Below are positions 3,064-19,885 of a stretch of 20,000 bases of DNA, in pieces. Each line of letters opens with the position of its first letter. Position 1 is the first letter of the stretch. This DNA comes from Cirrosporium novae-zelandiae (Eukaryota): contig JAPETS010000039.1 of NCBI GenBank assembly GCA_026023565.1, forward strand, positions 242,965 through 262,964, read 5' to 3'. Both the position numbers and the translations under genes were made by a program. The notes under the pieces were generated by a model, which was not told the DNA's origin, did no database searches, and saw nothing but the letters and a program-made list of their open reading frames with translations.

Positions 3064-4311
3064 ATGGCGTCCTCAAACAGTAAACCTAGAAAGACAAGAG
3101 GTAGGTATGCTCTCCAATAACAAATGATCAGAGCTGATATAAAAACAGACCATACAAAAGCATCTCCCCATGTTACCATGTCCGGGATAACCCTTTACAC
3201 AAATGAGCCCGGGAAACTAGGTTTGTTCTTGCCATAAATCAGAGGCAGCTAATAATGCTAATGGTTTCGAATAGTAGAAGCTGTGTTTCTTCACCAAATG
3301 AAGCTCTCACCAGCAGAGTCGCTGAACAATTATGGTATATTAACACTGCTTTGGGACAAAAGTAGAAACCCACTAATAATCGTAGATCACAAACCTAAGC
3401 AAGGGAAAAGGACTGCTGACCTCACATCATACATCCCACTCCACAGAACATGGGGTCCTGGGCGTGCTGAACGACCAGAGATATTATTTGAGCTCAACAA
3501 CATCAACCCTCCTTGTACGGATCCTGTAACCTTTCTCAAAGATAGCAACGGAAGAGTCGTCCTAGACACACTGGGCTGGGTAGTCAGAGACATTCCTCAC
3601 ATTCCAAGAACCATATCGACAAAGGTTGAAGGGTGGAGGATAGAAGCAATTTCTCGTGCAGACTCTTGGATTTGTATGCAAGACTTTCGGGCGCGCATGC
3701 CACTCTCCCTGACTCCTACTGGTGGAGATTCTCGCCCATCTACTGGAACTGTAGCCATGAGGGCAAACCGTTGGAGAGAGGAAGGACGGTGCCTTTCATG
3801 AAAACCAAGCGGAGAATCTATTCGACTCAAAGACAAACTCTTTAAAGAGTTGACCCCCCAGATGGTGGAAGGTAACACAACACGGGGCCTGAGAGACCTT
3901 ACACGAACTGAGGTAGGGGCATTGTATAAAGAAGGTTATGGAACGGGCTTTCACAAAGCTGGCAAAAGAAAGTTGACCGATACTCAACGACAGCAAAACA
4001 AGGAGCAGTATGCTGCAGATTTGCACGGTGAAAAGACTGATACCGAAGGCCAAAAAACCAATAATTTGCAACAAGAACCCCAAAAGATCATGAGTGAAAT
4101 GGAAAAGAATCCGGAGACAAGTTTACAAAAGTTTATAACCGAAACCCTTGCTGAGATAAAAGCCATCAAAGCTGATCACCAAAAGTTCTTAGCTCAACAA
4201 CCTTGGAACCAAGCTGACACTCCTAGAGGGGCTACTGTTCAAGGCGTTAGTAATAGGAATAGTGATCCAACCTCTTCCCGTGGATCCGAACCTGGACGAT
4301 ACATGAATTAA
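3064..4311 (+). pseudogene. Four-exon fungal hypothetical-protein gene with one in-frame TGA
   Basis: Predicted exons 3064-3100, 3149-3220, 3275-3334 and 3386-4311 splice in frame (introns GTAGGT..CTGAT..CAG, GTTTGT..CTAAT..TAG, GTATAT..CTAAT..TAG). ORFs 3283-3801 and 3850-4311 share one frame, separated only by TGA at 3799-3801. Motifs PRTISTKVEGWRIEAI..DFRARMP..MR..RWREEGRCLS*...NTTRGLRDLT resemble a recurrent Pezizomycotina hypothetical family that I recall as reading CLSW at this position. Confidence 0.65.
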
Positions 4312-4982
4312 AAATTTGTTCAATCGGCACAACATATAGAAAATATCGAAAAAAGTCCCACAATGGCCATAGCCTACAAAGACTTTCTCCTACTTCGATT
4401 GAACAGTTCGTTGGGTGGAGGGTTTCGGAAGAATGGAAGGTGAAAGGCGATTTTTCCTTCACATTCCTAAACTTTCAAGGTAGATATCTGTTTTCCGTGT
4501 TTGGCGTTAATGCTGGCTGTCCTATAATTGGCATGCTAGAGAGTTGCAGGAGGGTTAGGCTAGTTGAAGGACAAATCAGTGAATAGGTTTCAACAAGCTA
4601 GTCTAGTAGTTCTCATTCAAAGACTCCCATAAAACCGTCGTTATTGCTTTGTTGTCTATTATTATAGAATAATTCCTCAATCGTGTAACTTGGATGTTGA
4701 CTTCAATGACGTTGATTGCCAAGGGGCTATGCTATCGGAATTCCTTATCGTATACTTAATTATGTAAGTATTGAAACATTAGATAGACTAATTAATGCCC
4801 ATGTACTTTATTACGAACAGACGGAATCCCTCCGCCATCACTTCTAGTGCTTCCCCACAATTGCATTATCAATCTATCGTCATCATCAAGAACAGGGATT
4901 AAAAGTCCTCCAAGGCTTAAACTTTTGGCCCTTTTCGAAAAAATGGCATTCTCATTTTTGATCTACCTTCCTATAGTTCCCT

Positions 4983-6831
4983 ATGACTTCCAACATGGCC
5001 CTCGCGATGCCGGATCCTATTCAGCACCATCCCCACAAATACGATGACGGTACCGAGGATGCAAAGAGATCATCAATATCAGGAGCGTCTTTGTATTCCG
5101 GGGTATCAGGTATAGGAACGGTTGAGAATATACGAAGTATTGAGATTTGTGAGCCAGAGCGAGAACCACATGAAAAGGCATTTCGAGGACAAGCGGTAAT
5201 GCAATCGAGACGAGTAATAGAAGAAAAAGCTAACATGACTGAGCATGAACTTACCTTCATTATCGTCGTTATAATGGCTCAGCTATTCACCCAAATGAAT
5301 CTCGGGAATACAATAATCCAATTGAAACAGGTTGGACAGGCCCTCGGAGTGGGCGATAGCACCACCGAGGGGAGTTGGTTCGTAGCTTCATATTCAATGA
5401 CAGTTGGGGCATTTGTTCTTGCCACGGGCCGTCTTGGAGACATATACGGTTTCAAGACGTTATGGATAATTGGATGGATATGGACTGCTGCCTTCAGTCT
5501 CATTTGCGGTTTCTGTGGTTATATGCACTCGCCAATTGCTTATGACATATTCCGCGCCCTGACGGGAATTGGTCCATCTATTCTGATGCCAAATGCTGCT
5601 GCTTTGATCGGAACTGCCTTCAACCCTGGATTCAAAAAGAACCTTGCCTTTGCACTCTTTGGGGCCGTTGCCCCTGGAGGATATGTATTAGGATTACTTT
5701 GGGGAGCACTCTTTGCGCAATTGGTTGACGACTGGAGATGGACCTATTGGGCCATGTGCTTAGTTTGTTTGGTCTTGGCAGGGATTGCATATGTGGTCAT
5801 CCCTACAGAGTTCAATAAAAAGGGCCATGGCACGTTTGATTACTTGGGAACAGTAGTTGGCGTATCTGGACTGGTCCTGGTCTTCTTTTCATTCAAGTAT
5901 GTCCCCTCGAACTCGCCTTGTTGGTAATAAGCCTGTCAAATCCAGCCAAGCGGCTAGGAATATTCATCCTACCTAAACGCATGCTAAGTATACTCGTTTT
6001 TGGTATACAGCTTTGTCGGTTTGGTTACTTGTCGTCATTGTTGAGACCAAGAAACACTCCTAGTTACAATTGCTAACCTGATGCGCTCTATCTAGTGGTG
6101 CTCCAAGCTTCAATTGGTCAACCCCATATATTCCTGTTCTCCTGGCTGTTGGCCTCCTCTTGCTTGCCGCCTTCGTCTACATTGAGAATCATACGGATCA
6201 TCCTGTGATGCCCATGAGCCTCTTCCTCAACCCCGTGTTCTCCGCGGTAATCATTAGCCTGATGTGTGGTTGGATGAGCTTCGGGATGTACCAATACTAC
6301 ACTCCAAATTTCCTCCTCCACACCCGATCCCTTACCCAAATAAATGTGGCTGCACAGTTCATTCCCAGCGCTATAAGTGGCGGACTGGCTGCTCTTATTG
6401 CTGTCTACCTCCTCCCTCGCGTTTCTGCCTGGCCACTCTTCCTTGCCTCCATGGTATTCTTTTGTGCTGGCCAAGTTCTCCTTGCCCTAACTCCAGTCGA
6501 CCAAACCTACTGGGCAATGACTTTCCCGACAATCGTTCTCACGTCCCTAGGCCCAGATCTATCTTTTGCCTCTGGTAGTCTGATTGTAAGTGACGCAAGC
6601 CCAAGGGACAAGCAAGGTATTGCGGGAAGCTTTGTGAATACGGTGGTGAATTATAGTATAGGATTGGGACTAGCGTTCGGAGGAAGTGTGGAAAAGGCGA
6701 CAAATCTTGGGGGCAAGGATGTCGTAAGGGGGTATAGAGGGGCGTGGTGGTTGGGGACAGGATTTGCAGGACTGGGAATTGTGGTCACGGTGCTTTTCAG
6801 GAAAAGGATGGAAAAGAGCCACAAGGCTTGA
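4983..6831 (+). CDS. MFS drug:H+ antiporter, Atr1/DHA2 (14-TM, aminotriazole-resistance-like), ~549 aa
   Basis: Exons 4983-5896 and 6096-6831, intron GTATGT...GCTAAC...TAG. Motifs SWFVASYSMTVGAFVLATGRLGDIYG (MFS motif A), RALTGIGPSILMPNA, DWRWTYW, FDYLG, GPDLSF, QGIAGSFVNTVVNYS, GYRGAWW. The splice junction restores FSFN-GAPSFNWSTPY. Confidence 0.93.
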
Positions 6832-7254
6832 ACCCTGAGTGGCGATTGATGGTTTATCACCATCACATTTATCGGCTTCAAAACAAGTCCATGGTCATAC
6901 AGGATAGAAAGAAAGGGTTTCACCAGTTAGAATTTATACTATTAAGATGATAGATAGGAAAGGCTGTGGAAAATGCTCATTGCTAATATTATTCCTGGAT
7001 ATTCCTTCTAGACAATCCATAAAATCAATTAGAATATGAACTTCTTATCTGCCTCCCAAATTATGCACAAAAAATACACTCTGAAATCTATAAAGGACTG
7101 GTACCCGAAATAATTTCATCCAATACGGGATTCTCGAAGCCCTAGCCGTAGATTTTCTCCATGTTTTTTTAACGCTTCTGCAATATATCACCCAAATACC
7201 CCAGAATTCACATCAAGTGTGTAAACTTGGGATACAATCAACCCCTAAGGCACA

Positions 7255-8793
7255 ATGTCGAATGTGCCGGTTGAATTTTCAACATCCACACTTATTTTTC
7301 CACTAGCATCACAAAACTTCTCCCACACACTATCCTCGATCCGCCGATCGACCCTCTCCATATCTAACCGTCTCACATCATGCAAACGCGACTCCATCTT
7401 TGTTCAGTCGGTGGCAGAACACCTCAATCTCCCTTTGGTTGCAAATGAAAGATGTGGAAGTTGGTACATTCCTCTAGATAAAAAGGCGGGAAGCACATAC
7501 TTCAAAAGTACAGACGGGCATACAGGGCAATGGAAATTTAGTCTACGAAGGCTGAATCTGCAGGTTTTGGATATCATCGGACAAAATGGAGGGTAGGCTA
7601 GGACCAATATTAGCTTAAGATGGAAACGCTGAAATTGGTAGGTGTATCATTGTTGATTCTACACGGAGGGGCAAGAGTACGTTGGCGCACTACGTTCTCT
7701 TTATACTTTTGTGGCAATTAGCAACTGATTTTAACTGAAGAAATGTAGGCATGCCCGATGCGCTCTCGAAAACTGTCCCAATGTGGTGTGCCGTCATCAA
7801 TAGATGCTTATTCCCAGCATCCACTGAATGCCATGCCTTGAGTACCCCACCCGAGGCTGTTGGTGAGTCTGAGCATGCTCAAATGGAAGCCAAGTTGGAT
7901 AGTTTTGTTACGGACTTCAAAGTACAGCACGTCTACCTCAGTTGCACTCTTTCTGGACTAACATCATTTAGGAACTCGATATCGATGTCCCCGTCCTCAG
8001 AATGAAACTCAAAAAGCCACTTAAAGTCGACTGGGTCTACCCAAATTCCCCCTCCTTCCCTGACACCACTCTTTCCGAAAATTACAATTACGCCATTCTC
8101 TGTACAGCATCCCATCGAGTTCATGGAGCAGAGGCATCAGAGAATGGCTATATCCAAGGCGCAGGCGACGACAGCGAAGGATGGTCTCACGGTCTTACAC
8201 CCCCTCTATTCTGGGCCAACCAAGAACTTTTGTTTAAGACCGAGGAAGCAAATCTACCTGGTTTGATCGAGAAGCTGAAGCAGGAGGACCAGCAGAATAA
8301 TAAAAGCACAACAGCAACATTGATAAAACCAACGCCAAATATCTTCCTGGGAACCCTGGATACATTGACGGGTACTACCCAATTTGACATTATAATAGCA
8401 TGCTCGGAGAGCCCATTGCCAGTTTCCAGCCAGGAAAACTTCCTAGAACTCCGCTGTGCATCAGGAAAGCTAGGAAGTAAAGATCTCCGCAAAGGACTTG
8501 CTCAAGTACGCGATTTCATTGTCTCTACGTCTGCGAAACTAGGTAAATCCACTCCTAAAATTTTAATTACCTGTCCAACAGGAAAGGATCTCTCTGTGGG
8601 TGTAACACTGATGGTTCTCTCCCTCTTCTTCTCCAACGAAGGCATCTTTTCCCCCACGCCGTTGGAGGGCAATGGCATCACCAAAGCCTTTATCCGACAG
8701 CGCCTGGCATGGATAACGCTGTCAAACCCGGATTCAAATCCCTCTCGTTCAACATTACAAGCCATAAACAGTGTTCTTATGCAAAGACCTTGA
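7255..8793 (+). CDS. RIT1: Initiator tRNA A64-2'-O-ribosylphosphate transferase (~455 aa)
   Basis: Exons 7255-7592, 7642-7676, 7749-7921 and 7972-8793 join in frame. Signature motifs ANERCGSWY, YFKSTDGHTGQWKFSLRRLNL, CIIVDSTRRGKSMPDALSKTVPMWCAVINR, YIQGAGDDSEGWSHGLTP, C-terminal CPTGKDLSVGV and NPSRSTL. Confidence 0.97.
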
Positions 8794-9063
8794 ATTAATC
8801 GATAGTAGCATAGATGAGCTATTGGAACTAAATGAGGTATCAAACGCTAGAATCAAGTAATCTCGTTCTATGGACATAAGAAAACGGCATGAAGCGCTCA
8901 GCAAGCCAACCTGCCTCTCCCCAACATCATAGACTACCTCAAAGAATCCAGCACTCAACCCATCTTGTATTATCGTCCGGGCCTCATGGGGAAAGGGTCA
9001 GGGTTTAGCAACGAGAATCTTAGGTTACATATCTCATCCATCATTCACGTCATGATCAACGCT

Positions 9064-9607
9064 CTAGAAACCAGGTGGACCGGGTGGGCCTGGAGGGCCG
9101 CCGGGACCACCTCCTGGGCCATCATCTCCACAGCAGTCACCGCAGCAGCATTCTAGGCATTCGAACGCACAGCAGCCAGCACACCTGCAACGAAGAAATG
9201 GTTAGTTTGGGTTGATGTTGCAGATTTGGATAGAGGAAAAGAGAGATATAAACATACAGTCCGCAGCAGAGACCGCCACCGTTACCACCTCGTGCCATTG
9301 GAGCCATGTCCATCGATTGTTGAAGACCCTATAATTCAAAGAAATCACATTTGCCGTTAGTTCACACTATCCTTAGATTTCCTCAAACATAGCGATTCCA
9401 CAGAGTAATATTCATGGCAAATATATCTCAAGTTCGAATTCAAACAATCAAGAGACACATTTCCCATAATGTTATTCCTCCTACAAAAGATAGAACTGGC
9501 TAACAAATGATATGAGAAGGGCTTACAGGCTGTTGGCTGACGGGTCCGTTTCCTTGTTCAGGAACTCCCATCTGTTGGGTAGGTCGAGGTTGCTGGGTAT
9601 CTGCCAT
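9064..9607 (-). CDS. Small Gln/Pro-rich, Cys-rich (CYSTM-like) protein, 90 aa, three exons
   Basis: Minus-strand exons 9607-9527, 9328-9258 and 9184-9064, with GTAAGC..CTAAC..TAG and GTATGT..CTAAC..CAG introns. Translation: MADTQQPRPTQQMGVPEQGNGPVSQQPGLQQSMDMAPMARGGNGGGLCCGLCAGCCAFECLECCCGDCCGDDGPGGGPGGPPGPPGPPGF*. Absent from the ORF track because of splicing. Confidence 0.88.
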
Positions 9608-10559
9608 AATTGCAGAGGATATAGCAGTACTCTCTTTCTGTGTGTTCGTAAGAGAGAATATAGATGCTGGACTCAATGTGAATTTGTCTGTTGATGACGA
9701 ACAAGCTGTCTGAGGGAAGCTTATGTTTATGTGCCAAAGAGTAATTAGCTTCCGGCCCTGAAATGAAGCTTCTGTCTCACATAGGTCGAAGAAAGGAGAG
9801 CCCTTGCTAGGTCATACACGTATCAGCACCAGACGTACGTTGTATTACACCTACATCCATAAATCAAAGCAAATGTTTCTTGTATTGACTTTGCATCTCT
9901 TTCGATCAGCATTCATCCAATCCGATGGCTAGTTTCTCTCCCAGTTCCAATGAACACCAAGCCCTAGACGGCGGAATTACTCAATTGTTACCTATACAGC
10001 CACATGCTACGAATAAGTTTCAGCTGCGCAGGGGAGATACCTTGTGTCTTGGTTGAAGTAGCCCACATAGCATTACAAGACATTACCTATTGTATCTATT
10101 GTCGTCGCAACCTTCAATATTCACAGCCAATGGGAGGGGGGTACAAAATTGGGCGGGTTAAGCAATCGCCAAGCTGGGTAGGGCCGAGAGTTTATGGCCG
10201 CTTCGGTTCGGTGAGGCATTGCCGTTCATAGCTAAGCGCGAATTAAACAAACGCAACGGTATTATTGGAGCACGGACCATTTAGCCGGTATATCCGTCAG
10301 AGCCGCAATGGGCGGAAGGAACGTCGTGGAAGATACCAAGAAACAGAGGGACCAGGATGGATATAACTACAGGCACAGTACAAGAATAGGGCTGCTAACT
10401 CATACTTCTGCAAAGTATATGCATACATCATCGAAACTTGCAGTTTAACTATCAAATTGATTATATCTCATCATGTACCTAAAATCCTTAGTTATTCGTG
10501 ATGCAAGCAACTAAAGTATCCCTCATATCGTCCTATCGCTTTATGAAACGCCTCAAGTA

Positions 10560-11180
10560 ACAACCTCCTCATGACCTAGAAAAGGTAATTTCCATCAATT
10601 GCGAATAAATCCATAGGGTATCAAGCAAAGATGTTGGAATGAAACTAGAAACATCGATGTTTGTCAAACCTAGCTACACACGACTGTTTGAGAATTGAAC
10701 ATGTGAGAAATAGCACCTTTTCAATCACACAGCCTTTACAGGAAAATTATAAAAACTCGGAATAGCGCTTTTCTAATCGCCCTCTAACGCAAACGTTCCT
10801 TATCAGCAGTGGAAGATCTCTCTAAAAGCAGCCCCTCATACTCCAATACACTTACCATTTGGGACAACCACCGGAAACTCGTCCGACTTTGACCCGATCG
10901 TCATCCAATAACGACATAATTCGAAGTGTGCTGATTCTTTGTGGTTTATCCGAAAAGCGCCAACCAATTAGAAAGTCCCAAACCAGAGTTTCTTCATATC
11001 TCTTATTTCTCTTCTGTACTTAGCTAAGTCATCTTGTGAAGGAAGGAGGCTCCCAAGGTAGTTAAATTTTTGTCTCTCTTGAACGATCTTTGAAATTTGC
11101 TCTTGGGGGGTGCAATAGCTTTTGTCATATTTAGATTCTAAAAAAGGGTTTCTCTTGTTTATTAAGATAGATGAGTATCA
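10560..11180 (-). pseudogene. Possible heavily decayed gene relic of unknown family
   Basis: One minus frame reads ...ESKYDKSYCTPQEQISKIVQERQKFNYLGSLLPSQDDLAKYRREIRDMKKLWFGTF*LVGAFRINHKESAHFELCRYWMTIGSKSDEFPVVVPN. This is followed by an intron-like GTAAGT (10855) ..GCTGAT..TAG (10784), then further stops. Boundaries are approximate. Confidence 0.25.
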
Positions 11181-11320
11181 TATCAACTTCAAAGTTGTTG
11201 CTTATGTTGTTATACGTTTTTTTTTTTTGATATTTATGACATACATACGAATGATGGGTACTACGTGAGCCCTGCGGTTGGTTCGTGAATACGGAACTGA
11301 GATATTAAGTATAATGTTAA

Positions 11321-11552
11321 GGAGTGAATGTCTCTATACTGGAGTGAAGGCTATACTGAAGTGAATGTTATACTGAAGTGAATGTTATACTGAAGTGAAT
11401 GCCTCTATACTGAAGCAGCGTTGTCGATGGACTGGCCCAAATAGACGATCTACTCTAGACCGTCTATAGACCTTAGACCGACCAGACCAAAGGAGCCGGT
11501 CTGGTCTATCGACAACGCTGCACTAAAGTGAATACCTCTATTGGAGTGAATG
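11321..11552. repeat. Degenerate 17-22 bp minisatellite, core GRAGTGAATG..TATACT, about 7 units
   Basis: Units GGAGTGAATGTCTCTATACT, GGAGTGAAGGCTATACT, GAAGTGAATGTTATACT x2, GAAGTGAATGCCTCTATACT, one unit split by the MITE, and GGAGTGAATG. Confidence 0.9.
11416..11520. mobile_element. 105-bp non-autonomous TIR element (MITE), probably hAT-derived
   Basis: Perfect 13-bp TIR CAGCGTTGTCGAT / ATCGACAACGCTG that extends imperfectly inward. 8-bp flanks TACTGAAG (11408-11415) and CACTAAAG (11521-11528) match 6/8, both differences being transitions. Internal AGACC/GGTCT motifs recur. Removing the element plus one flank restores the minisatellite unit. Confidence 0.8.
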
Positions 11553-14418
11553 CATCAGGTAGCAATCTGAAAATATCCGAAGGTTGAAAAATTCACTCTA
11601 GCGCTGTGAATATCCCCTGCCCTTTTTCTCTATCAAGATGCCAATATCCCTTCAAAAACCTTCCCACTCTCCTTTCTCTACTCTCCTTACTCATATCTAT
11701 CTCTACATATATAGTAAAAGTTCATATCTTCTAACTCGTTTTAATGTGATATAAAAGTTTCTCGTCTCTGAGGTCTAACTTCATATTGATTATACTTCCC
11801 CTTACCTTTCCTTCTCCCCCCCCTCAACTTATCACAGCGTATGCAAAAAGATACCGCCATTTATTACACAGTTCTGCACCCCCTTCCTACCTCATAGTAA
11901 CCATTACGGTTACTGAAGTCGTGCACATAATTTATGTCACTTCTCACAGTCTTGCGAGACTTTTACTGATCGCTTCGTGCGTCGACATTACATATATCTC
12001 TACAGTCTTTCAAGACTATCGCTCGGCGCTTCGTGCGGCGGCGTGAAAATTATATAAATTGGCTCCTGGGTCACATCGAGGTGGTTCCTCCAAGCGAGAA
12101 CGCAGAGCAGTCCCCGCTCCTCCGAACTCTCAAGAAGTTCAAAATTCACTCCAAGTGGAGCACCAATTCCTGTGGAGGAGATGGATACTGACCTCACAGA
12201 GGACCAGATCAAGCATGATGAGTGGTTGGCGAAGAGGCTTCAGGAGGAACTTGAAGAGCGCGACATTGCAGACAAAATGAATAACCTGAGTAGTTTGGGC
12301 TTGAATTCACCAGAAGCCAGTCTAAGTTGAGTAGGTAGGTTAAACTCGAGAGAAGGTCGAGGAGGTTTCTAGATGTTCGAAATCAGCTTCTTGACAGCTC
12401 CAAAGCAAGACCTTATGAAAGGGCTCGTGCTCGCTAATATGTACGAAAATCAGCCACTTGAGACGAAGATGAGGGAGGTCCGCTTAAAAAGTGACCAAAC
12501 CCTCAAGCCGCTCGATGGTGATCACTCCAAGTTGGAGAAGGACGTTTTAAGGGTCAGAGCAGTGGTGGCTAGTAGCAGCAGCGAGCTATTAACTCTAGCC
12601 CCACTAGTTAGAAACAGTTACGGCGCCTTCCATAAAATTCACCCATTTGACAGCCGGAATTGACATGCCAGGTATCGCCGTGGTTGCCGACGGTGTCATG
12701 TGCAAAACACTTTCGCCCGGTCCAACTGGAATTGAGAGAATAGAAGCCATACCTTACCCAGCCGTACGTGAGTTTTCTAACGGTCAAGGTGCGGTTGCTT
12801 TTGCTCGAATGATGCTTGTCAGGGGATCTCGTTTTTCGTATAGCAAGCTGGCACCTCTCTCGACGGGAACGCATACCTGCTGGATCATCCAGACCATCGA
12901 CCAGACGAATCCTGATGAAGTTCCCGATACAGAGACGATCGACAAGGACAACGAAAGCAAAGGCAAAGGGAGAGAATCAGAGGTCCTAGAGTGGCCCAAA
13001 ATTACTTCAAAAAGGCAATGCAAGTCACCATCTTCGTCCAGCTCGACCCAAAGCAAGGGGTTCCGGATAATATCCCACCAATCGGTGCAGATCTCAACTT
13101 CATATTTTTGAACGAAGCGGGCTTTCGTGAATCGAAACGAGGTCATTACTGTAGTATTGTTATTAGTGTTGATATTCGTTTTCTGGACAGCTATAATTTT
13201 GCTGCCAGCGGCTACAAGTCCTCCATCGCATCCCTAGCAGCTGTCCTGGCGGGACATCAAGCAGGCCAAGAAAATGGCCCTAAAAGGTATTAGCTGCCAT
13301 ATGAGGTCGTTCACCAGCACCGATCAGACTACGAAGTCAACGGATGTATTTAAGAACCTTGTTCACCCACATAGACAGATCCAGTACTTCCTACAGGCCT
13401 TCCGTGGGCGGAACCCAGGTGCACCACCGATCGACTATGCTTCTGAGGGTCTGAGGAAGAAGATTAGCCTCCCCGCTGGCTGGACGCTTACAGATAGCCA
13501 GCTTGAGGTAGTGAGTCGTTGTCTGCTCGGAGAGCTTCTTACACTTGTTAGAGGTCTCCCTCCCGGGTGCTGGAAAAATTACAACGATGTGTACTATACT
13601 ACTCATACATGTGCAACTTGGCAACAAACCCTTTGCATGCGCCCCCGGCAACGTTGTAGTTGATAAAATAGTGCGCAAACTCCAAAAGTTGCTAGAACTC
13701 GCTGGTAATATGGACGTCGACATCATCCGCCTGCATGTCAACTCGAGAGAATTCGGTGAGGCATTAGAAAACAAAGAGCTAACTTCGGAAATGCTTGTAG
13801 GTCCCCAGGAAAGAGACGAGGCAATGTTAGCTCAAGAGATAATGTCAATGATCGTAGACCTAAGTGGACTAGAAACCCTCAACCTGAAGCTATATTATTA
13901 TAGTTTTTAAAGATATATATAACGATTTTTGATGACCTAGGGTCATTAAATCAATTTACTATTGCAATAAGCCCTTACATTAAGTATTTAAAACTTATCT
14001 TAAGGTTATAAAGCCTACTATTCCGATATCAAGAGAGGCTAGATGGCTTTCCAAGGAAGTTCGCTTGCTGCAGCTGTTCGTTGGGTGACCAAAGTATGCG
14101 ACATTTTAGCAGGGACATGTACCGTTATCCTTCAGTATCTTCCTAAACTCTTCAAACCAACGGTAGGATTGGGATTGATTGACGGGGCAGCTCAGGCGTG
14201 CGATGCTGATACTATGATCCCACATGGTACGTTTTTCAAGACCCTCAAGAGTACAATTTGGGCTGACAACGATCGTCAGCCTCAGCCTATAGCCGTAGGG
14301 CACTCTTAAAACGATATTCACAAGCAGGCAATGTTCTCGACATTCCAACAGTTCTGTGAGAGTGGACGATTTCCACTAGTAGAAATGAACGAGCAACATA
14401 ACTTCCGGCTGTACCAAG

Positions 14419-14790
14419 GGTTGATCTCGGGCATCGGGACCGACGACTGGGCAGCTGAATTTACGGAGCTACCACATACGACAATAAGGACGGTGGAAAT
14501 CCCGGAGACAAAAGTGGAGGGAAAGGGTGCATGGAGTTGCCAAGTCGTCGCGGAAAGCTCTCCATGCCATTTTTGTAACCAAAATGAACACGAACAAGAT
14601 GCCGCCGCGTGCGGCAGCCTGAAGTTCATGGCGGCTTCAAATCATGCACCTATTAACACCCTCCCAAAAAATGAATAGTACAAATAATAGCATAATTATT
14701 ACGTCTGTGAATATAAATGGAGCATCTGACCGCGACCGGATGCGAAAAGTGTATACATGGATGCTGGCTAACGATGTAGCCGTAATGGAT
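14419..14790. other. 372-bp insertion into the helicase flanked by CAAG direct repeats
   Basis: CAAG at 14415-14418 and 14791-14794. Deleting the insert plus one CAAG gives CTG TAC CAA GCC ACG ATC ACC GAC CAT = LYQATITDHDSV and reconciles the frame change between ORFs 14331 and 14644. Confidence 0.6.
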
Positions 14791-15430
14791 CAAGCCACGA
14801 TCACCGACCATGATTCAGTGAAGCACGACAACCCGGTCCGTAAGGTTGTTCGTGCTTTTAACATGGCTCACTTCGGTTCGGAATCTTCACTACTCCAGCT
14901 GGATATGATCTTTGGACAAGCCCGGACCGAAAAAGGAGGCTATTCTTTGTATAACTGGCCAGAAGTCTTTCTCGCTGTTGATATTGTTAAAGGCCTTCTT
15001 TCGAATAAGAGCAAAGTTATTTAAGAAGGTTATATCGGAGTTATAACTCTATACCATGGCTAGCGAGATCTAATTAAACAGTTCTTGACTGAAACAGGTT
15101 TCGATAACGTGGAGGTATCTAACGTGGATGATTTTCTGGGCCGCGAGCACAAATGCATTATCTTTACGGTTGTTGCTACTCCGGGATCTTATTATGGCCC
15201 AAACATTTTCATAAGGAATCCAAATCAGCTGTGCGTTGCAGTAAGCCGGGCCAAGAATGGCTTATGGATCATAGGCAAGCTCCAGAGCCTAGACAAAGGG
15301 AAAGAGGAAAACGCTATGAAAGATGTGATCTACTACATCCGCAACGACAAGGACGCATGGTCACGAGGACTCGGCCACGATGAGTACATCGACAACTCTC
15401 TAGCGGCTTAAGAAGAGACCGAGGCCATCA

Positions 15431-15829
15431 TTGATATTACCTGAGCTAGAATACCCTCTTTCAATTGCTCTGCAGAATCTTTCATTCAAGGAAAGGACTC
15501 CACCGTTTGCCATTCCGGTCAAAAAGAGAGTCCTGGGAGTCTTCCACACTATATTCCCTTCCAATGCCGACGATATTGACATAGCAGATACGCCGTGGAA
15601 GGATTTTGAGCAGGTTATGAAAGCTGTTGGTTGGTTTTCTACTTCTAACGGAGGTTTAGCCATCACTTTCGAAAAAGCCGACAATGCTTTGCTGGGCCCG
15701 AATGGCAGTATTGTCTTTCATAAACCCCACCCCGATTCCAAAGTTGGTATAGATAGGTTACGCACATTTGGGAAGAGGTTGAACAGGAGGTATAATTGGG
15801 AAAGGGAGGCATTTGAGGCTGCAAGATGA
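15431..15829 (+). other. HicA-toxin-like domain (W.DF...M...G...F...G.I.FHKPHP...GKRL.R.Y.W)
   Basis: PWKDFEQVMKAVGW-STSNGGLAITF-...GSIVFHKPHP (15716-15733)-DSKVGIDRLRTFGKRLNRRYNW resembles the alpha-beta-beta-beta-alpha HicA-type pattern with its FHxPHP motif. The ORF starts at TTG, with no ATG until 15617, so it is most likely the C-terminal part of the helicase gene. Confidence 0.7.
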
Positions 15830-16650
15830 AACTTCTCGTAACGCAACTGAGATTGACGTGGAACTGTCAATAATGAAATTCTTGAATATGGATTGGGTTG
15901 GGCTTGGAATTCGAAGTTGAAACCAGATTTCCTGAAATTCTTTTGTATTATTTCTTCGCTACGATAGATAACTTAATGCTTTCCGAATCTTATGGCAAAA
16001 CTATTTACTTGTGGTTTTGCTTGGTCCCCTACATTGTAGCGGCTAGCGGGGAAGACAGGCGGATGGTGCAGGCTGAGAAATAGGGTACAGTAAATCCTCA
16101 GCGCCAAGTATTTAGACTTCCACCACCAACAACAACAATCTCTGGTAGAACTACACGCGCGCGTTGTTAGATAGGTACCTAGGTAGTTTCCAGTGTTGTT
16201 TGCCTGTCGCTAGTGATTGATGAATATGATTAAAGTGATAAAGAAAAACTCATGGTTGATTACTTAAATTAGGAAAGGTTTGATTTGATTTGTATGCAGA
16301 TGGGGCCGACGATGAGACCGACTTCAAGAATGAAGAATAGCAGTGAATTCCTATCTCCACCGCATTATCATTACCTCTGCCGTTATAGATGATATCTTTT
16401 GGGTTCTATTGACTAGTTTATTGATTGAATGGCATGGGTTATTGCGTTCTTTGTTCACCTGGCATCCTCGCTATTCAAGACTGGCCCTTCATCTCTTACT
16501 CTATTTAGTCATTTCTGCCCCCTATATCCAAAGATTCGAGCTTCTTGAGATTCGCTCAACAGGTGCACTGACCATAATCATTTTTATAGCCAAGATTACT
16601 TCTTCAAAAGAGAATACAGATATCCTACACATTGAATCATATTCATCAAC

Positions 16651-17840
16651 ATGGCAAAACAGTCCCGAAGTCTACTTGTGAAGCTTCGGACTCGATTCAA
16701 ACACGTACCAAAACCAGTAAAGAAACTTGTGTGGCAGAACGATCTCAAAAATGCGGTGACCTACGCAGAGTTCTTGGAATGCAGGCAGACAGATCATACT
16801 AAGGAGTATAACGCAGCAATTGACGAAAGGGACGCAGCATGCAGTGAACTAGCAACTGTTCAGAACTAATATCGCATTGAAGCCGAGTCCCTGAAGGAAA
16901 AAGTCAAAGATCTTAAATCTATCATCAATAGCCTATCCAGAGAAAAATGCAGCCAGGAAGGTCAACCATTTCCACCTTTCGGAATTTCTCCCCACACAGA
17001 TGATCTCACACAGATACTCTTTGACTACGCTCGGTCCTTGGGAGACAAGATTGAGCAGTCAGCTGATAAATGGGGTGATCAAGCAATGGTAAACGTCAGT
17101 TTAAAGGCGGACATTCGTCAAGAGCGGCTATCAAAAGAGATAGCTGTGGCAAGACTTGTTGTTAAGCTAGGAAGGACGGCGCATGACGATAGGATAAAGT
17201 TTCAGAGGTTTGACCTAATCGAACTTGAGCGCAGTGAGCTCGAGGAGGTGAATGATCAACTGGAGAAAGTGTCGCAGATTTCATGAAATCCTGCCTTCTG
17301 AACCACGATGAGGAAGAAGCTATTCACCGGGTTCTACGCTGGAAGAAGTCTCACAGCCATGATGGCGGGTTTGCAACAAAGCTACAGACTGTCACTCATA
17401 AGAATTTCTTTGCACCAAATCAGAACTCAGCAACATCCTCAAACGCTACCTCTAATATCCTGTACGATTCACCGAACCACAATGACTTACCTTCTACCTA
17501 CCCTAATCTACATGATCTACTTTTGGCAGCTGCGTCGGACACAGTAGCAGCTGATATATTAAAAATCGACATTGGCGCACATAATAGCGCCACCCTAGAA
17601 ATCCTCGGTAGACCACAAGCTTCGAGCCTTTCCCCTTCGAGATCCAAAATCAGCTCCGCAACTCAATCACCCATCACAAACAACTTTCTGTCTGCTGCCA
17701 TAAGAGATTATTGGAAGAGAGTGAATGCAGAACGAGAAGCATCAGGTAGACCTAGCACTTCGTTGAAGACCTTGACGAGGGGAAGGGATACCTTTTCCAA
17801 GCCCAGCTTCTTTAGCTGCTATGGTTCTAACAGCAATTAA
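16651..17840 (+). pseudogene. Coiled-coil hypothetical protein pseudogene
   Basis: ATG at 16651. After TAA at 16867-16869 the same frame stays open (YRIEAESLKEKVKDLKSII...) into ORF 17038-17286. A GT duplication near 17269-17272 (GAG AAA GT GTC GCA GAT TTC ATG) links it to ORF 17283-17840. The N-terminal half is charged and heptad-like, the C-terminal half Ser/Thr-rich. Confidence 0.6.
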
Positions 17841-18543
17841 TCACTAGAAATAGGGAGAGATCATGAAACCCTCTCGACTAATACTAAGGGCTCGATCATT
17901 CGAACTACAGTTCTTCCTGTCCAAAATACCGAAGACAACCTGCTTAAAGTCCCATGTTTTGGTTATGTTGAGAATACAAAGCTTGTATCGGGATCAGGTC
18001 CCGAATCAAAAATTAGTGGTCATTCGGACTTTGACGGCTCTACGTACAGGTACAGTACAGTGGTCTCTAGGACAGGGAGATGGCGAACGAACGAGCCACA
18101 GAAGCTCGATAGCATGTATTCCTATTCCATTTTCTTTACCCTTCTAATTTCTATTAAATACCGAAGGTTCCCGATTACTACTATTATCACTTTGCTCGAT
18201 TAGGGATGATGGGGTTTATGATATTATCCAAAAGCCTAAACGGCAAAAATCAATTACAAAGGTACATTCGACGGGTAGAAATGAAAGCGACCAGAGTATT
18301 TGTAGATATCTAATTGAAGATGTTACATTCTGATTATCTATAAAAAATAGTACTGTACGCCTTGACGTTTCTTGGCAGGGGAAAATAAAATTCCAGAGAG
18401 TCCAAATGCCAGTAAAGTTAACAGGGATGACTTCATGGTAATTCTAGTGTCGTTCCATAGAGCTTCTTATCAACATTACTTCTTCCACCTTTAGATTTTT
18501 CCATCATGTTTTTGATTAGAGTCTAGTCGCATTCTCCTCAACC

Positions 18544-19885
18544 ATGACGACCGAGGACGACATCTATCGCACCTCCACTCAATACCGCCTTTGGTCCTTT
18601 ACCCCCGAGTCACTCGCCTCTCTTCGGTCCAGCACGAATGAACTAGCTGCCGAGCATGTACGCGAAGCCATCAAACGAGCCCGGGAATCTCATGACACCA
18701 CTGCGCAAGCTGCCTCACCCGCGAATGGAATTGATGGAGAGCCGATAATAGGCCAGGATCAAGAAAATGGCGATGGAAGTAAAGAAGAGATTGAGTGTTT
18801 GGCCGTCGAGGAGGAGCAGAAATTAGTTGGATTTTACTGCCAGAAATGTTTGGAGCTGGCCGATGCTATCCCTCAGCCTCATGGACCCCTCCCTACTCAC
18901 GTCAAGGTATGTTATATTTTCTTGAGGATATTCTACTTCTGCGAAGCTTGACAGAAGAATTTCTGACTCAGTCCTTTAGGCAACCGCTGTGCAGTACCTT
19001 AAGCGCTTCTATCTCAGCAACAGCCCAATGACATATCATCCCAAATCCCTTATGCCCTCTGCTCTGTTCCTGGCCACCAAAACGGAAAACCATTACATCT
19101 CCCTCTCCAAATTCTCAAGCTTCGTCAGGAATTCAACCCCCGACACCATAATAGCGCCCGAATTTCTCTTAACCCAGTCCCTCCGGTTCACCTTCTCCGT
19201 CCACCATCCTTTCCATGGCCTCGAAGGGGGCTTCATGGAACTCACCGCCCTAGCCAATGGCGACGGCTTTGGCCTTCCCAACGAGCTCGAATCCGAAAAG
19301 GCGGAAATCCAGTCACAGATGCTCAATCTCCCCATAGTAGGAGGTGGATTCAAAAAACGCCCCCGCCAGACCGTCACCGAGGTCAAAACCAGTGTGAAAA
19401 CAGGCTGCGACCGTGCGCGGGAAACACTTAAAACCTCCTCCGTCCTCGGAGACGCCTATTTTCTCTTCACGCCAGCCCAAATCTGGCTTGCGGCGCTAGC
19501 CATCCACGACAAACCACTCGCGGATTTCTATCTCGACGCAAAACTGCAGGTCGTTTCCTCTTCATCTAGCCCCGCTATACAGAAAACAAGAGAAGCTTTA
19601 AAAACAAAACTCCTTCGCACCCTCAACAAATGCACCTCCCTTCTCCAATCCTACACCGGTCCCGTCGCACGAGGCTCCCCCCAAATGGAAGAGCTCCGAA
19701 ACATCGACAAGAAGCTCTACAAATGCACAAACCCCGAGAAAAAAGACATTGTGAGCTTGAACCGCGCTGTCAAGCGCGAGAAGGTGGACGGAGTGGGGCG
19801 GGAAGAAAAAGAAGCAAAGAGGAGAAGGACAGAAAAAGAAAAGGATGACCTTTTTGGCCCGTCGTTGACGGTTCAAACTAAATAA
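18544..19885 (+). CDS. CCL1: Cyclin H (Ccl1/Mcs2), TFIIH/CAK cyclin, ~422 aa
   Basis: Exons 18544-18906 and 18980-19885, intron GTATGT..CTGAC..TAG. Motifs EDDIYRTSTQYRLWSFT, EEEQKLVGFYC, VK|ATAVQYLKRFYLSNSPMTYHPK, LFLATKTEN, PEFLLTQSLRFTF.V.HPF, DAYFLFTPAQIWLAA, IDKKLYKCTNPEK. Confidence 0.96.

What the first reader, a model, noticed from the sequence alone, without database searches (positions are those of the whole stretch)
12059..15829. Reconstructed MIU + Upf1-like helicase + HicA-like domain fusion: candidate fungal RNA-defence/conflict effector
Seen: a full ordered set of SF1B Upf1-family motifs ends at SRAKNGLWIIG. After ...SLAA*EETEAIID and a single frame change near 15430-15440, the sequence runs into a domain with W.DF..M..G, a central beta strand, FHKPHP and GKRL.R.YNW. 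That domain has no start codon of its own before 15617. Established: HicA toxins are small His-dependent RNases with a dsRBD-like fold. Upf1-like helicases act in RNA surveillance and silencing (Upf1, Neurospora SAD-3, S. pombe Hrr1, ZNFX1, MOV10) and are paired with nucleases in some prokaryotic defence systems. Inference: the ancestral gene was one sensor-helicase/toxin-RNase protein, possibly antiviral, allorecognition cell-death or meiotic-drive related. Its accessory location and inactivation would fit conflict-gene turnover. I know of no characterised fungal protein with this architecture.
Basis: partly seen in the sequence, partly recalled or inferred. Interest (0 to 1): 0.85.

Follow-up and report, generated by a model that had tools for sequence, protein, structure and literature searches.

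The report
Dead helicase gene with HicA-like tail
A fungal RNA-helicase gene that has decayed into a pseudogene is followed directly by a domain with the fold of the bacterial HicA toxin, but whether the two were ever one protein cannot be shown, and that domain normally belongs to a different, widespread and unstudied fungal protein family.

Summary
The sequence observation holds in part. Window 12181-15411 (+) is a decayed Upf1-like SF1B helicase gene. It has Pfam AAA_11/AAA_12 matches, a frameshift inside the P-loop, GKT>GKI, and two stop codons inside the motif IV remnant. Window 15404-15829 is an open 141-codon frame with no usable start. It encodes a HicA-fold domain: the four best of 48,161 PDB chains are all HicA-family. 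This domain is the C-terminal module of a large fungal family (954 clusters at E<=1e-3). In 136 of 140 long members the module follows one helical N-terminal domain of about 670 aa. None of the 207 members examined carries a helicase, and no intact relative of this helicase was found. The fusion is therefore plausible, because the two parts abut on one strand and their reading frames overlap by 8 bases, but it is unproven (about even odds). The family has Ala where bacterial HicA has its functionally essential His, so RNase activity cannot be assumed. The neighbours are Rit1, a cyclin and an MFS transporter, and I saw no RIP or transposon signs, so an "accessory" location is not supported. The locus is dead now. 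Interest is modest.

The parts
12181..12330 (+). First coding segment (frame 1), starting at ATG 12181. It holds the MIU-like stretch DEWLAKRLQEELEE at 12217-12258.
   Evidence: Translations. Pfam found 0 families. The MIU pattern is recalled and was not tested.
12373..13293 (+). N-terminal non-helicase region, spread over frames 1, 2 and 1 (12373-12663, 12608-13111, 12919-13293). I could not decide whether each frame change is a small intron or a lesion.
   Evidence: There was no Pfam family at E<=0.01.
13238..13910 (+). Helicase domain 1A. The lead-in LTDSQLEVVSRC..LVRGLPPG is in frame 2. The P-loop PGAGKITT (GKT>GKI, Ile codon 13578-80) and motif Ia PFACAPGNVVVDKIV (13629-13673) are in frame 0. 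The frameshift lies inside the P-loop at ~13556-13568.
   Evidence: Pfam AAA_11 E 7.1e-6. Alignment to IGHMBP2 'PPGTGKTTT..CAPSNIAVD'. Nucleotides.
14043..14678 (+). Frame-0 segment with the motif II-like LIDGAAQA (14175-14198, DE>DG) and the motif III-like WADNDRQPQPI (14259-14291). An in-frame stop sits at 14307-14309, followed by MNEQHNFRLYQGLI.
   Evidence: Motif assignment is by eye. There was no PDB helicase hit for 14043-14306.
14623..15063 (+). Frame-1 segment ending in the motif IV remnant YIGVITLYHG (15031-15060), bracketed by in-frame stops TAA 15022-24 and TAG 15061-63.
   Evidence: Translation. The public gene model P0153 removes 15016-15081 as an 'intron'.
15064..15411 (+). Helicase domain 2A end: motif V VSNVDDFLGREHKCIIFTVVA (15115-15177) and motif VI QLCVAVSRAKNGLWIIG (15226-15276), then a 45-codon tail and TAA at 15409-11.
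   Evidence: Pfam AAA_12 E 7.1e-13, 49 bits. PDB ZNFX1, Upf1 and Sen1 hits. PADLOC MkoA 1.2e-10.
15380..15411 (+). Junction. It holds the frame-2 ATG 15380-82, the frame-2 TAG 15401-03, the frame-2 ORF opening at 15404, and the frame-1 TAA 15409-11. The two open frames overlap by 8 bases (15404-15411).
15404..15829 (+). HicA-like C-terminal module, an open frame of 141 codons. RLKKRP (15404-15421) aligns to the family's KiKtRp linker motif. An extra strand and helix lie at 15512-15553. The HicA-fold core spans ~15587-15820. GGLAI (15650-15664) sits where the family has GGSAV and bacterial HicA has G-S-H. FHKPHP is at 15716-15733 and the TGA at 15827-29.

Best explanation
The locus is a dead gene. 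A lineage-specific Upf1-like (SF1B) helicase gene of Cirrosporium novae-zelandiae has decayed through frameshifts, nonsense codons and changes in ATPase motifs. It abuts, on the same strand and with overlapping open frames, the 'basic linker + HicA-fold' module that normally ends a widespread fungal protein family of about 830 aa.

The most likely history, at about even odds, is this. A 3' fragment of such a family gene became the last part of the helicase ORF, giving one helicase-HicA-like polypeptide. The whole gene was later inactivated, and the junction now carries one more small lesion.

If it was once active, the inferred mechanism is as follows. A 5'-3' RNA/DNA helicase motor was tethered through a disordered basic linker to a small dsRBD-like nucleic-acid-binding domain that may or may not cleave RNA. 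Nothing is made from the locus today, beyond possibly a fragment.

What is shown: the helicase identity, the lesions, the HicA fold, and membership of the module family. What is inferred: the former single ORF and any activity.
For: Pseudogene status:
- A frameshift lies within the P-loop, GKT is GKI, and stops sit at 14307, 15022 and 15061.
- The public model salvages only 296 aa by splicing out the motif IV remnant.
- A second assembly agrees with the sequence.

Module identity:
- A phmmer search found 954 representatives at E<=1e-3.
- The family profiles score 119.8 and 128.8 bits on the window's module.
- The AF2 model has pLDDT 85.
- The top 4 of 48,161 PDB representatives are HicA-family, Z 4.9-6.0, with the next at 3.5. 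Searches agree.

One former ORF:
- The frame-2 ORF opens at 15404, 5 bases before the helicase stop codon begins, on the same strand.
- It has no ATG until 15617.
- The family linker motif aligns immediately after the TAG.
- The module is C-terminal in 203 of 207 relatives.
- The other gene gaps seen in the window are at least ~300 nt.
- All 14 short 'stand-alone' relatives checked come from short metagenome or Logan contigs (771-7975 nt), not from annotated genomes. Evidence for true stand-alone genes is therefore weak.

Module decay:
- Family-invariant Ser is Leu, and near-invariant Gly is Asn.
- The module's score is at the 12th percentile of the family.
Against: None of the 207 module relatives has a helicase. 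Whole-window blastx at E<=1 found none. Pfam found AAA_11/AAA_12 in 0 of 60. Precomputed Pfam found them in 0 of 67.

In 136 of 140 long relatives the module is tied to one other N-terminal domain, so it is not a promiscuous module.

No intact helicase relative was found to show what its C-terminus looks like.

A one-lesion repair of the junction needs an indel within only 5 bases (15404-15408); otherwise two lesions are needed.

A frame-2 ATG at 15380 followed by TAG 15401 allows a separate small gene killed by one nonsense change.

The module has no internal stop or frameshift, while the helicase has many. That outcome has a probability of about 0.3 by chance at the helicase's lesion density (my estimate).
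Confidence: 0.5

Rival explanations
1. The two parts were never one protein. The module is a translocated 3' fragment of a gene of the ~830-aa family, or a small independent gene beginning at ATG 15380 and killed by TAG 15401. It merely lies behind an older dead helicase gene.
For: The module's usual partner is a different domain (136 of 140). No helicase fusion occurs among the 207 relatives. A frame-2 ATG lies at 15380. The module is better preserved than the helicase: no stop in 141 codons, and 13 of about 15 strongly conserved positions kept. The nearest ESM Atlas cluster is a 185-aa Ascomycota cluster of 233 members, at score 0.86, which is a lead only.
Against: Zero spacing between two same-strand coding regions is not how separate fungal genes lie. 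A promoter would have to sit inside the helicase coding region. An ATG within 8 codons occurs by chance about 1 time in 8 (my estimate). The short relatives checked (14 of 14) are calls on short metagenome or Logan contigs, so they may be exon fragments. No trace of the family's N-terminal domain exists anywhere in the window.
Confidence: 0.4
2. The locus is still functional. On this view the apparent lesions are introns or errors, and the module is expressed by splicing to the helicase (for example a GT..AG interval 15325-15403) or from the ATG at 15617.
For: GT at 15325 and AG at 15402-03 would join frame 1 to frame 2 in phase (my reading). The module ORF is open.
Against: The P-loop frameshift and the stops inside the motif IV remnant cannot be introns. 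The donor GTGATC is poor, and my scan found no branch-like site in that interval. A start at 15617 would remove helix 1 of the fold. A second assembler reproduces every lesion.
Confidence: 0.05
3. This is the first reader's full reading: the relic of a sensor-helicase fused to a His-dependent HicA RNase toxin, acting in antiviral defence, allorecognition or meiotic drive, and lost through conflict-gene turnover in an accessory region.
For: The HicA fold is real. Two invariant His residues lie in FHxPHP, and the second aligns to the P-H-P of B. pseudomallei HicA. That paper says 'many others contain' a His at this position, 'close in space to His24' (PMC3969222 passages). Helicase-RNase toxin fusions exist in bacteria: PhoH2 (PMC4826407 passages). 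The helicase end resembles Mokosh MkoA.
Against: The canonical His24 position is Ala in the window and the family consensus. The fusion is unproven. The neighbours are Rit1 and cyclin genes. There is no RIP signature and no repeats. No polymorphism or distribution data were available.
Confidence: 0.15

Closest known systems
Bacterial HicA toxins (Pfam PF07927; PDB 1WHZ, 6G26/4C26, 4P78, 5YRZ, 6HPB)
   Same: It has the same small alpha-beta-beta-beta-alpha dsRBD-like fold. VIA gives Z 6.0 (68 aligned, rmsd 2.7), 5.0, 5.0 and 4.9 for the four best of 48,161 chains. The G-S turn and the P-H-P loop align. Family members reach Pfam's cut-off, for example 86.1 and 46.7 bits.
   Different: Ala stands at the His24 position needed for toxicity. 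There is an extra N-terminal strand and helix and a C-terminal strand. An additional invariant His occurs in FHxPHP. The domain is the C-terminal part of large eukaryotic proteins, not a ~60-aa toxin. No HicB partner was seen among the large ORFs scanned. The window's own Pfam score is below the cut-off (21.6 against 27).
Fungal 'YcfA/HicA domain-containing' proteins of ~830 aa (e.g. Fusarium, Hypoxylon, Fulvia, Elasticomyces entries; uncharacterised)
   Same: The window's module matches their C-terminal module at 119.8-128.8 bits, including the KxKTRP-like linker motif. The conserved signature is the same: W..F..AM..GF, GGSA, FH+PHP, GKR..KWFGW.
   Different: Their ~670-aa helical N-terminal domain is absent from the whole window. 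A helicase stands in its place.
Upf1-like SF1B helicases (ZNFX1, Upf1/Nam7, IGHMBP2, Sen1; Pfam AAA_11/AAA_12)
   Same: The order and sequence of motifs I, Ia, V and VI match.
   Different: The gene is broken and its ATPase residues are altered. The only other protein found by the word search is the public model of this same locus. The N-terminal ~450 codons match no family.
Helicase/ATPase-RNase toxin fusions of bacteria (PhoH2: PIN + PhoH) and helicase-nuclease defence proteins (Mokosh MkoA/MkoC)
   Same: The concept is the same: an NTP-driven nucleic-acid motor coupled to a toxin-type nuclease fold. MkoA models hit the helicase end at E 1.2e-10. PhoH2 is described in PMC4826407 (passages).
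   Different: The folds and the domain order differ, the host is a eukaryote, and the coupling here is unproven. The PADLOC hit covers only the generic motif V-VI region.

Membership tests
HicA toxin (PF07927) | Match to the Pfam model at or above its gathering score | tested here: not met
   The window scores 21.6 bits against a cut-off of 27, E 2.4e-4. Relatives do pass: 11 of 60 reach >=27 bits and 33 of 60 reach E<=1e-3. The family as a whole therefore connects to the model.
HicA toxin (PF07927) | dsRBD-like alpha-beta3-alpha fold | tested here: met
   The AF2 model has pLDDT 85. Foldseek's top 3 are HicA, with probability 0.87-0.96 and TM by target 0.67-0.71. In VIA-wide the top 4 of 48,161 are HicA-family, Z 4.9-6.0, with the next at 3.5.
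HicA toxin (PF07927) | Conserved His in the G-S-H turn between strands 1 and 2 (His24 of B. pseudomallei HicA, required for toxicity) | tested here: not met
   The profile alignment puts the family's GGS-A on the G-S-A of the H24A mutant chain 4C26. The window reads GGLAI. The role of His24 comes from PMC3969222 (passages).
HicA toxin (PF07927) | Small stand-alone toxin encoded beside a HicB antitoxin | tested here: inconclusive
   The module is C-terminal in long proteins in 203 of 207 relatives. Only ORFs of >=110 aa in the window were scanned, and none matched HicB. No dedicated HicB search was run.
Fungal ~830-aa HicA-like family | C-terminal module with W..F..AM..GF / GGSA / FHxPHP / GKR..KWFGW | tested here: met
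   hmmsearch gives 119.8 bits with the profile built without the window (12th percentile of 207), and 128.8 bits with the full-length profile. Two conserved positions are changed: S>L and G>N.
Fungal ~830-aa HicA-like family | N-terminal ~670-aa helical domain upstream of a disordered linker | tested here: not met
   Whole-window blastx against all family proteins at E<=1 finds nothing outside the module. The domain is seen in 136 of 140 long relatives and in the AF2 model.
Upf1-like SF1B helicase (AAA_11 + AAA_12) | Pfam AAA_11 and AAA_12 matches in order | tested here: met
   AAA_12 scores 49 bits (cut-off 27). AAA_11 scores 26.4 bits on a fragment (cut-off 27). PDB hits are to Upf1, ZNFX1, IGHMBP2 and Sen1.
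Upf1-like SF1B helicase (AAA_11 + AAA_12) | Intact ORF with Walker A GK[ST] and Walker B DE | tested here: not met
   There is a frameshift in the P-loop and GKI in place of GKT. DG stands at the presumed DE, read by eye. There are at least 3 in-frame stops.
MIU ubiquitin-binding motif | Short helix with the recalled pattern acidic-x-hydrophobic-L-A-x-x-L-Q-x-E | not tested
   DEWLAKRLQEELEE is present at 12217-12258. The pattern is recalled. No model exists in the libraries used, and Pfam gave 0 families.

The most novel reading that the evidence does not exclude
The locus is the fossil of a real single polypeptide in which an Upf1-like RNA helicase carried a HicA-fold effector. That effector would use the family-invariant His pair of FHxPHP in place of the bacterial His24. 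It would be a eukaryotic counterpart of bacterial helicase-nuclease defence or toxin proteins. By extension, the large fungal family with this module would be a domesticated bacterial toxin fold acting on RNA in a conflict or surveillance role.
Probability: 0.15. Interest if true: 0.6.

Novelty: new variant of a known kind. Interest (0 to 1): 0.3.

Why it matters
This locus matters little on its own. It is a pseudogene, and the one unusual feature, the helicase-HicA join, cannot be verified with the data reachable here.

The useful by-product is the family behind the module. A HicA-fold domain with Ala at the canonical His and an invariant FHxPHP sits at the end of ~830-aa proteins. The family occurs across Ascomycota, with members in Basidiomycota and Mortierellomycotina. 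Four searches of the held literature found no study of it. If that module is an RNase or an RNA binder, it would be a case of a bacterial toxin fold taken into eukaryotic proteins. A helicase fusion, if confirmed in an intact relative, would point to its substrate.

Tried and rejected
- **Own genome.** It is not held, so paralogues and synteny could not be checked.
- **Read-through of 14623-15408.** The stop-free piece 15064-15408 was used instead. It found only the public model of this same locus: 1 hit among 48 candidates.
- **JGI metagenome contigs.** The helicase model matched 50 pattern stretches and none was confirmed. The module matched 135 and none was confirmed. Alignment A1 was not usable for this tool.
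- **Sequencing runs.** No RNA holder was listed. The only holder may be the source sample.
- **ESM Atlas.** The helicase gave only generic AAA_12 clusters, scores <=0.85. The module's best cluster scored 0.86, and one bacterial cluster had HicA_toxin on 29% of members. These are leads only.
- **Earlier findings of this scan.** Nothing relevant turned up.
- **RIP.** TpA/ApT is 0.84 and (CpA+TpG)/(ApC+GpT) is 1.20 over 12059-15829. The values are shifted slightly against the neighbouring genes (0.61-0.71 and 1.26-1.39) but are not at the recalled RIP thresholds.
- **Transposon signs.** There are no flanking repeats.
- **Rfam.** No match.
- **Intron scan.** It did not explain the frame changes.
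- **Module against PDB by sequence.** The single sequence gave 0 hits at E<=10. The profile gave only HicA, at E 0.74-0.8.
- **N-terminal domain of the ~830-aa family.** There was no Foldseek PDB match at E<=0.001 for the whole 832-aa model. The domain alone was not searched.
- **Literature on fungal HicA-like proteins.** Searches found none. Most 'HicA'/'YcfA' word-start hits were unrelated terms; for example PMC12773724 has 0 whole-word occurrences.
Full report
**Source and setting**

The window is eukaryotic. A 296-aa public protein, 'MAG: hypothetical protein M1834_006207 [Cirrosporium novae-zelandiae]', matches 15064-15408 at 99% identity. The organism is an ascomycete of the Xylobotryomycetes. 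No whole genome is held for it.

ORFs around the finding match these families:
- an MFS transporter (4977-6831)
- Rit1 (7249-8793; Rit1_C 1.5e-37, Init_tRNA_PT 5.8e-32)
- a cyclin (18980-19885; Cyclin_C_2 2.9e-25)

RIP dinucleotide indices over 12059-15829 are 0.84 and 1.20. They are shifted only slightly from the neighbouring genes. There are no flanking repeats and no Rfam match. The 'accessory location' in the finding therefore has no support.

**The helicase**

The + strand from ATG 12181 to TAA 15409-11 carries pieces of one Upf1-like SF1B helicase, spread over all three frames.
- Pfam gives AAA_11 on 13515-13910 (E 7.1e-6, 26.4 bits) and AAA_12 on 15064-15411 (E 7.1e-13, 49 bits).
- PDB sequence searches give ZNFX1 (5e-5), Upf1/Nam7 (about 5e-4) and Sen1 for the C-terminal half, and IGHMBP2 (1.2e-4) and Upf1 for motifs I/Ia.
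- PADLOC's MkoA/MkoC models hit the generic motif V-VI region.

The gene is broken beyond doubt.
- The lead-in LVRGLPPG is in frame 2 and PGAGKITT is in frame 0, so a frameshift lies inside the P-loop at ~13556-13568.
- The Walker Thr is Ile.
- A stop lies at 14307-09, between the motif III-like and following segments.
- The motif IV remnant reads VI*EGYIGVITLYHG*, with TAA 15022-24 and TAG 15061-63.

The other frame changes (about 12610-12660, 12920-13000, 13240-13290 and 14610-14670) and the stop-rich AT-rich stretch 13911-14042 may be introns or lesions. My intron scan did not settle them.

The public gene model keeps only 296 aa. It reaches that by splicing out 15016-15081, which is the motif IV remnant.

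A contig built by another assembler covers 12000-15900 with 0 differences and 0 gaps. It comes from a run that may be the source sample, so it excludes assembly slips but is not independent data.

No other relative of this helicase was found:
- The word-index search returned 1 hit among 48 candidates, and that hit is the locus itself.
- In JGI metagenome contigs, none of 50 pattern matches was confirmed.

**The terminal domain**

Frame 2 is open from 15404 to TGA 15827-29 (141 codons), and its first ATG is at 15617.

Sequence evidence:
- Pfam HicA_toxin matches at E 2.4e-4, 21.6 bits, below the cut-off of 27.
- An exhaustive phmmer search of 1.84 billion representatives found 954 proteins at E<=1e-3 and 66 at E<=1e-10. 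The best was 2.3e-24, and the top 150 were listed.
- A profile search added 67 longer proteins.
- Named members come from Fusarium, Hypoxylon, Fulvia, Elasticomyces, Zymoseptoria, Botrytis, Xylographa, Mycena, Coprinopsis and the mortierellomycete Gryganskiella. Some are labelled 'ycfA domain-containing protein'.
- An alignment of the window with 27 short members has W65, G76, H106 and H109 invariant. Its consensus is W..FV.AM.DAGF.A...GGSAV.F...G.IVFHRPHP..KID...LR..GKRL.KWFGW.RE.FV.

Fold evidence:
- AlphaFold2 on that alignment gives pLDDT 85 and pTM 0.70. The model has an extra strand and helix (37-50), an alpha-beta-beta-beta-alpha core (65-130) and a final strand.
- Foldseek's top three PDB matches are HicA chains 6G26 and 5YRZ (probability 0.87-0.96, TM by target 0.67-0.71, E 0.2-0.4).
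- VIA-align against 48,161 representative chains, run independently of Foldseek, ranks four HicA-family chains first: 1WHZ Z 6.0 (68 aligned, rmsd 2.7), 6G26 5.0, 4P78 5.0 and 5YRZ 4.9. The next chain is at 3.5, and E. coli HicA 6HPB is at 3.1. One search agrees.
- These Z values are modest, as expected for a 60-residue domain. However, the matches cover nearly whole targets and stand apart from the rest.

The HicA-like fold is therefore supported.

**Catalytic residues**

The family profile finds only HicA in the PDB (E 0.74-0.8). It aligns the family's G-G-S-A onto the T-G-S-A of 4C26 and its PHP onto that chain's PHP.

4C26 is the H24A mutant. In B. pseudomallei HicA, His24 is the most conserved residue, and H24A or G22C abolishes toxicity. 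The same paper notes that 'many others contain' a His at residue 40, 'close in space to His24' (PMC3969222, abstract and passages of sections 22 and 25).

The window (GGLAI) and most of the 27 aligned short members, which typically read GGSAV, have Ala at that position, and none has His there. The family does keep the PHP His and adds another invariant His three residues earlier. RNase activity is thus possible through a different arrangement of His residues, but it cannot be assumed from HicA.

**What the module normally belongs to**

Of the 208 proteins in hand other than the helicase model, 207 carry the module. It ends within 40 residues of the C-terminus in 203 of those 207.

Of the 140 with at least 150 residues before the module, 136 fall into one single-linkage cluster by their N-terminal regions. 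A further 3 are basidiomycete proteins that cluster together, and 1 is alone.

A 44-sequence alignment of ~830-aa members gives an AlphaFold2 model with pLDDT 86.6 and pTM 0.87. It shows a ~670-aa helical domain, a disordered linker (670-723) holding an invariant K.K(TR) motif, then the module. Foldseek finds no PDB match at E<=0.001 for the whole model. The domain alone was not searched.

No member has a helicase:
- Pfam found AAA_11/AAA_12 in 0 of 60.
- Precomputed Pfam found them in 0 of 67.
- blastx of the whole window against all members at E<=1 hits only the module.

Nor is any trace of the helical domain present in the window.

Fourteen short 'stand-alone' members were checked, and all 14 are gene calls on short metagenome or Logan contigs of 771-7975 nt. 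They may be fragments.

**The junction**

The helicase frame (frame 1) ends at TAA 15409-11, about 45 codons after motif VI. That is roughly where solved Upf1-like cores end (my reading).

Frame 2 opens at 15404, directly after TAG 15401-03. The full-length family profile aligns its KiKtRp linker motif to RLKKRP at 15404-15421 with low posterior support, and the rest of the module follows at 128.8 bits.

Three ways of joining or separating the parts remain:
- a single indel within 15404-15408 would join the two frames
- a frameshift further upstream plus the TAG would also join them
- the frame-2 ATG at 15380 could start a small separate gene killed by that TAG

A GT (15325)...AG (15403) interval would join the frames in phase, but its donor is poor and my scan found no branch-like site.

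The module shows some decay. A Ser invariant in the 44-sequence full-length alignment is Leu in the window, a near-invariant Gly is Asn, and its score is at the 12th percentile of the family.

**Weighing**

For one former ORF:
- the two parts lie on the same strand at zero distance with overlapping open frames
- the module has no start codon of its own
- the module is C-terminal everywhere else
- many small lesions of the required kind exist in the same gene

Against one former ORF:
- the architecture is unseen among 207 relatives
- the module is tied to one other partner domain
- no intact helicase relative exists for comparison
- the ATG/TAG alternative remains open

I put the former fusion at about 0.5, mere juxtaposition at about 0.4, and present function at about 0.05. 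Whether the ancestral protein was a defence or conflict effector is untested. The genomic setting does not suggest it.

**Comparison with known systems**

- The module has the fold of bacterial HicA but fails two membership features: the Pfam cut-off for this copy, and the His24 position.
- It is a member of the uncharacterised fungal family by its module but lacks that family's N-terminal domain.
- The helicase is a broken Upf1-like SF1B member.
- Bacterial PhoH2 (PIN RNase plus PhoH ATPase; PMC4826407 passages) and Mokosh helicases are functional analogies only.
- Four literature searches found nothing on fungal HicA-like proteins. The held library lacks most subscription journals, so this is weak evidence of absence.

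**Verdict**

The locus is a pseudogene with a possibly unique but unverifiable domain join.

Noticed in passing
Proteins P0001-P0209 (relatives of window 15404-15829); model m98dc45f01e3d: A large fungal family of ~830-aa proteins: a ~670-aa all-helical N-terminal domain with no Pfam match and no Foldseek PDB match at E<=0.001, then a disordered linker with an invariant K.K(TR) motif, then the HicA-fold module. The AF2 model has pLDDT 86.6 and pTM 0.87. Members occur in Ascomycota, Basidiomycota and a mortierellomycete. I found no literature on it.
   Followed up: partly
Alignments A1 and A2 (columns matching window 15650-15664 and 15716-15733): The fungal family consensus has Ala where bacterial HicA has its essential His, and none of the aligned members has His there. 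The family has two invariant His residues in FHxPHP. This suggests either a relocated active site or a non-catalytic RNA-binding role.
   Followed up: partly
window 15016-15081 and P0153: The public gene model for this locus (296 aa) removes a 66-nt GT..AG 'intron'. That interval is in fact the motif IV remnant, containing two in-frame stop codons. The model is an artefact of forcing an ORF through a pseudogene.
   Followed up: yes
P0004 (514 aa), P0101 (706 aa), P0206 (391 aa), P0003, P0006, P0055: Some family proteins carry 2 to 4 copies of the HicA-like module in one chain.
   Followed up: no
window 11335-11401: Three tandem copies of a 17-nt unit (TATACTGAAGTGAATGT-like) lie in the AT-rich stretch upstream of the helicase start. 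The 11001-12000 interval is the only one in the window with a RIP-like composite index above 0 (0.06).
   Followed up: no
window 16870-18203 and 605-1147, 3262-4311: Long open frames have no Pfam match. 16870-17840 looks coiled-coil-rich by eye. The stretch from about 8850 to 12000 has no ORF of 110 aa or more.
   Followed up: no
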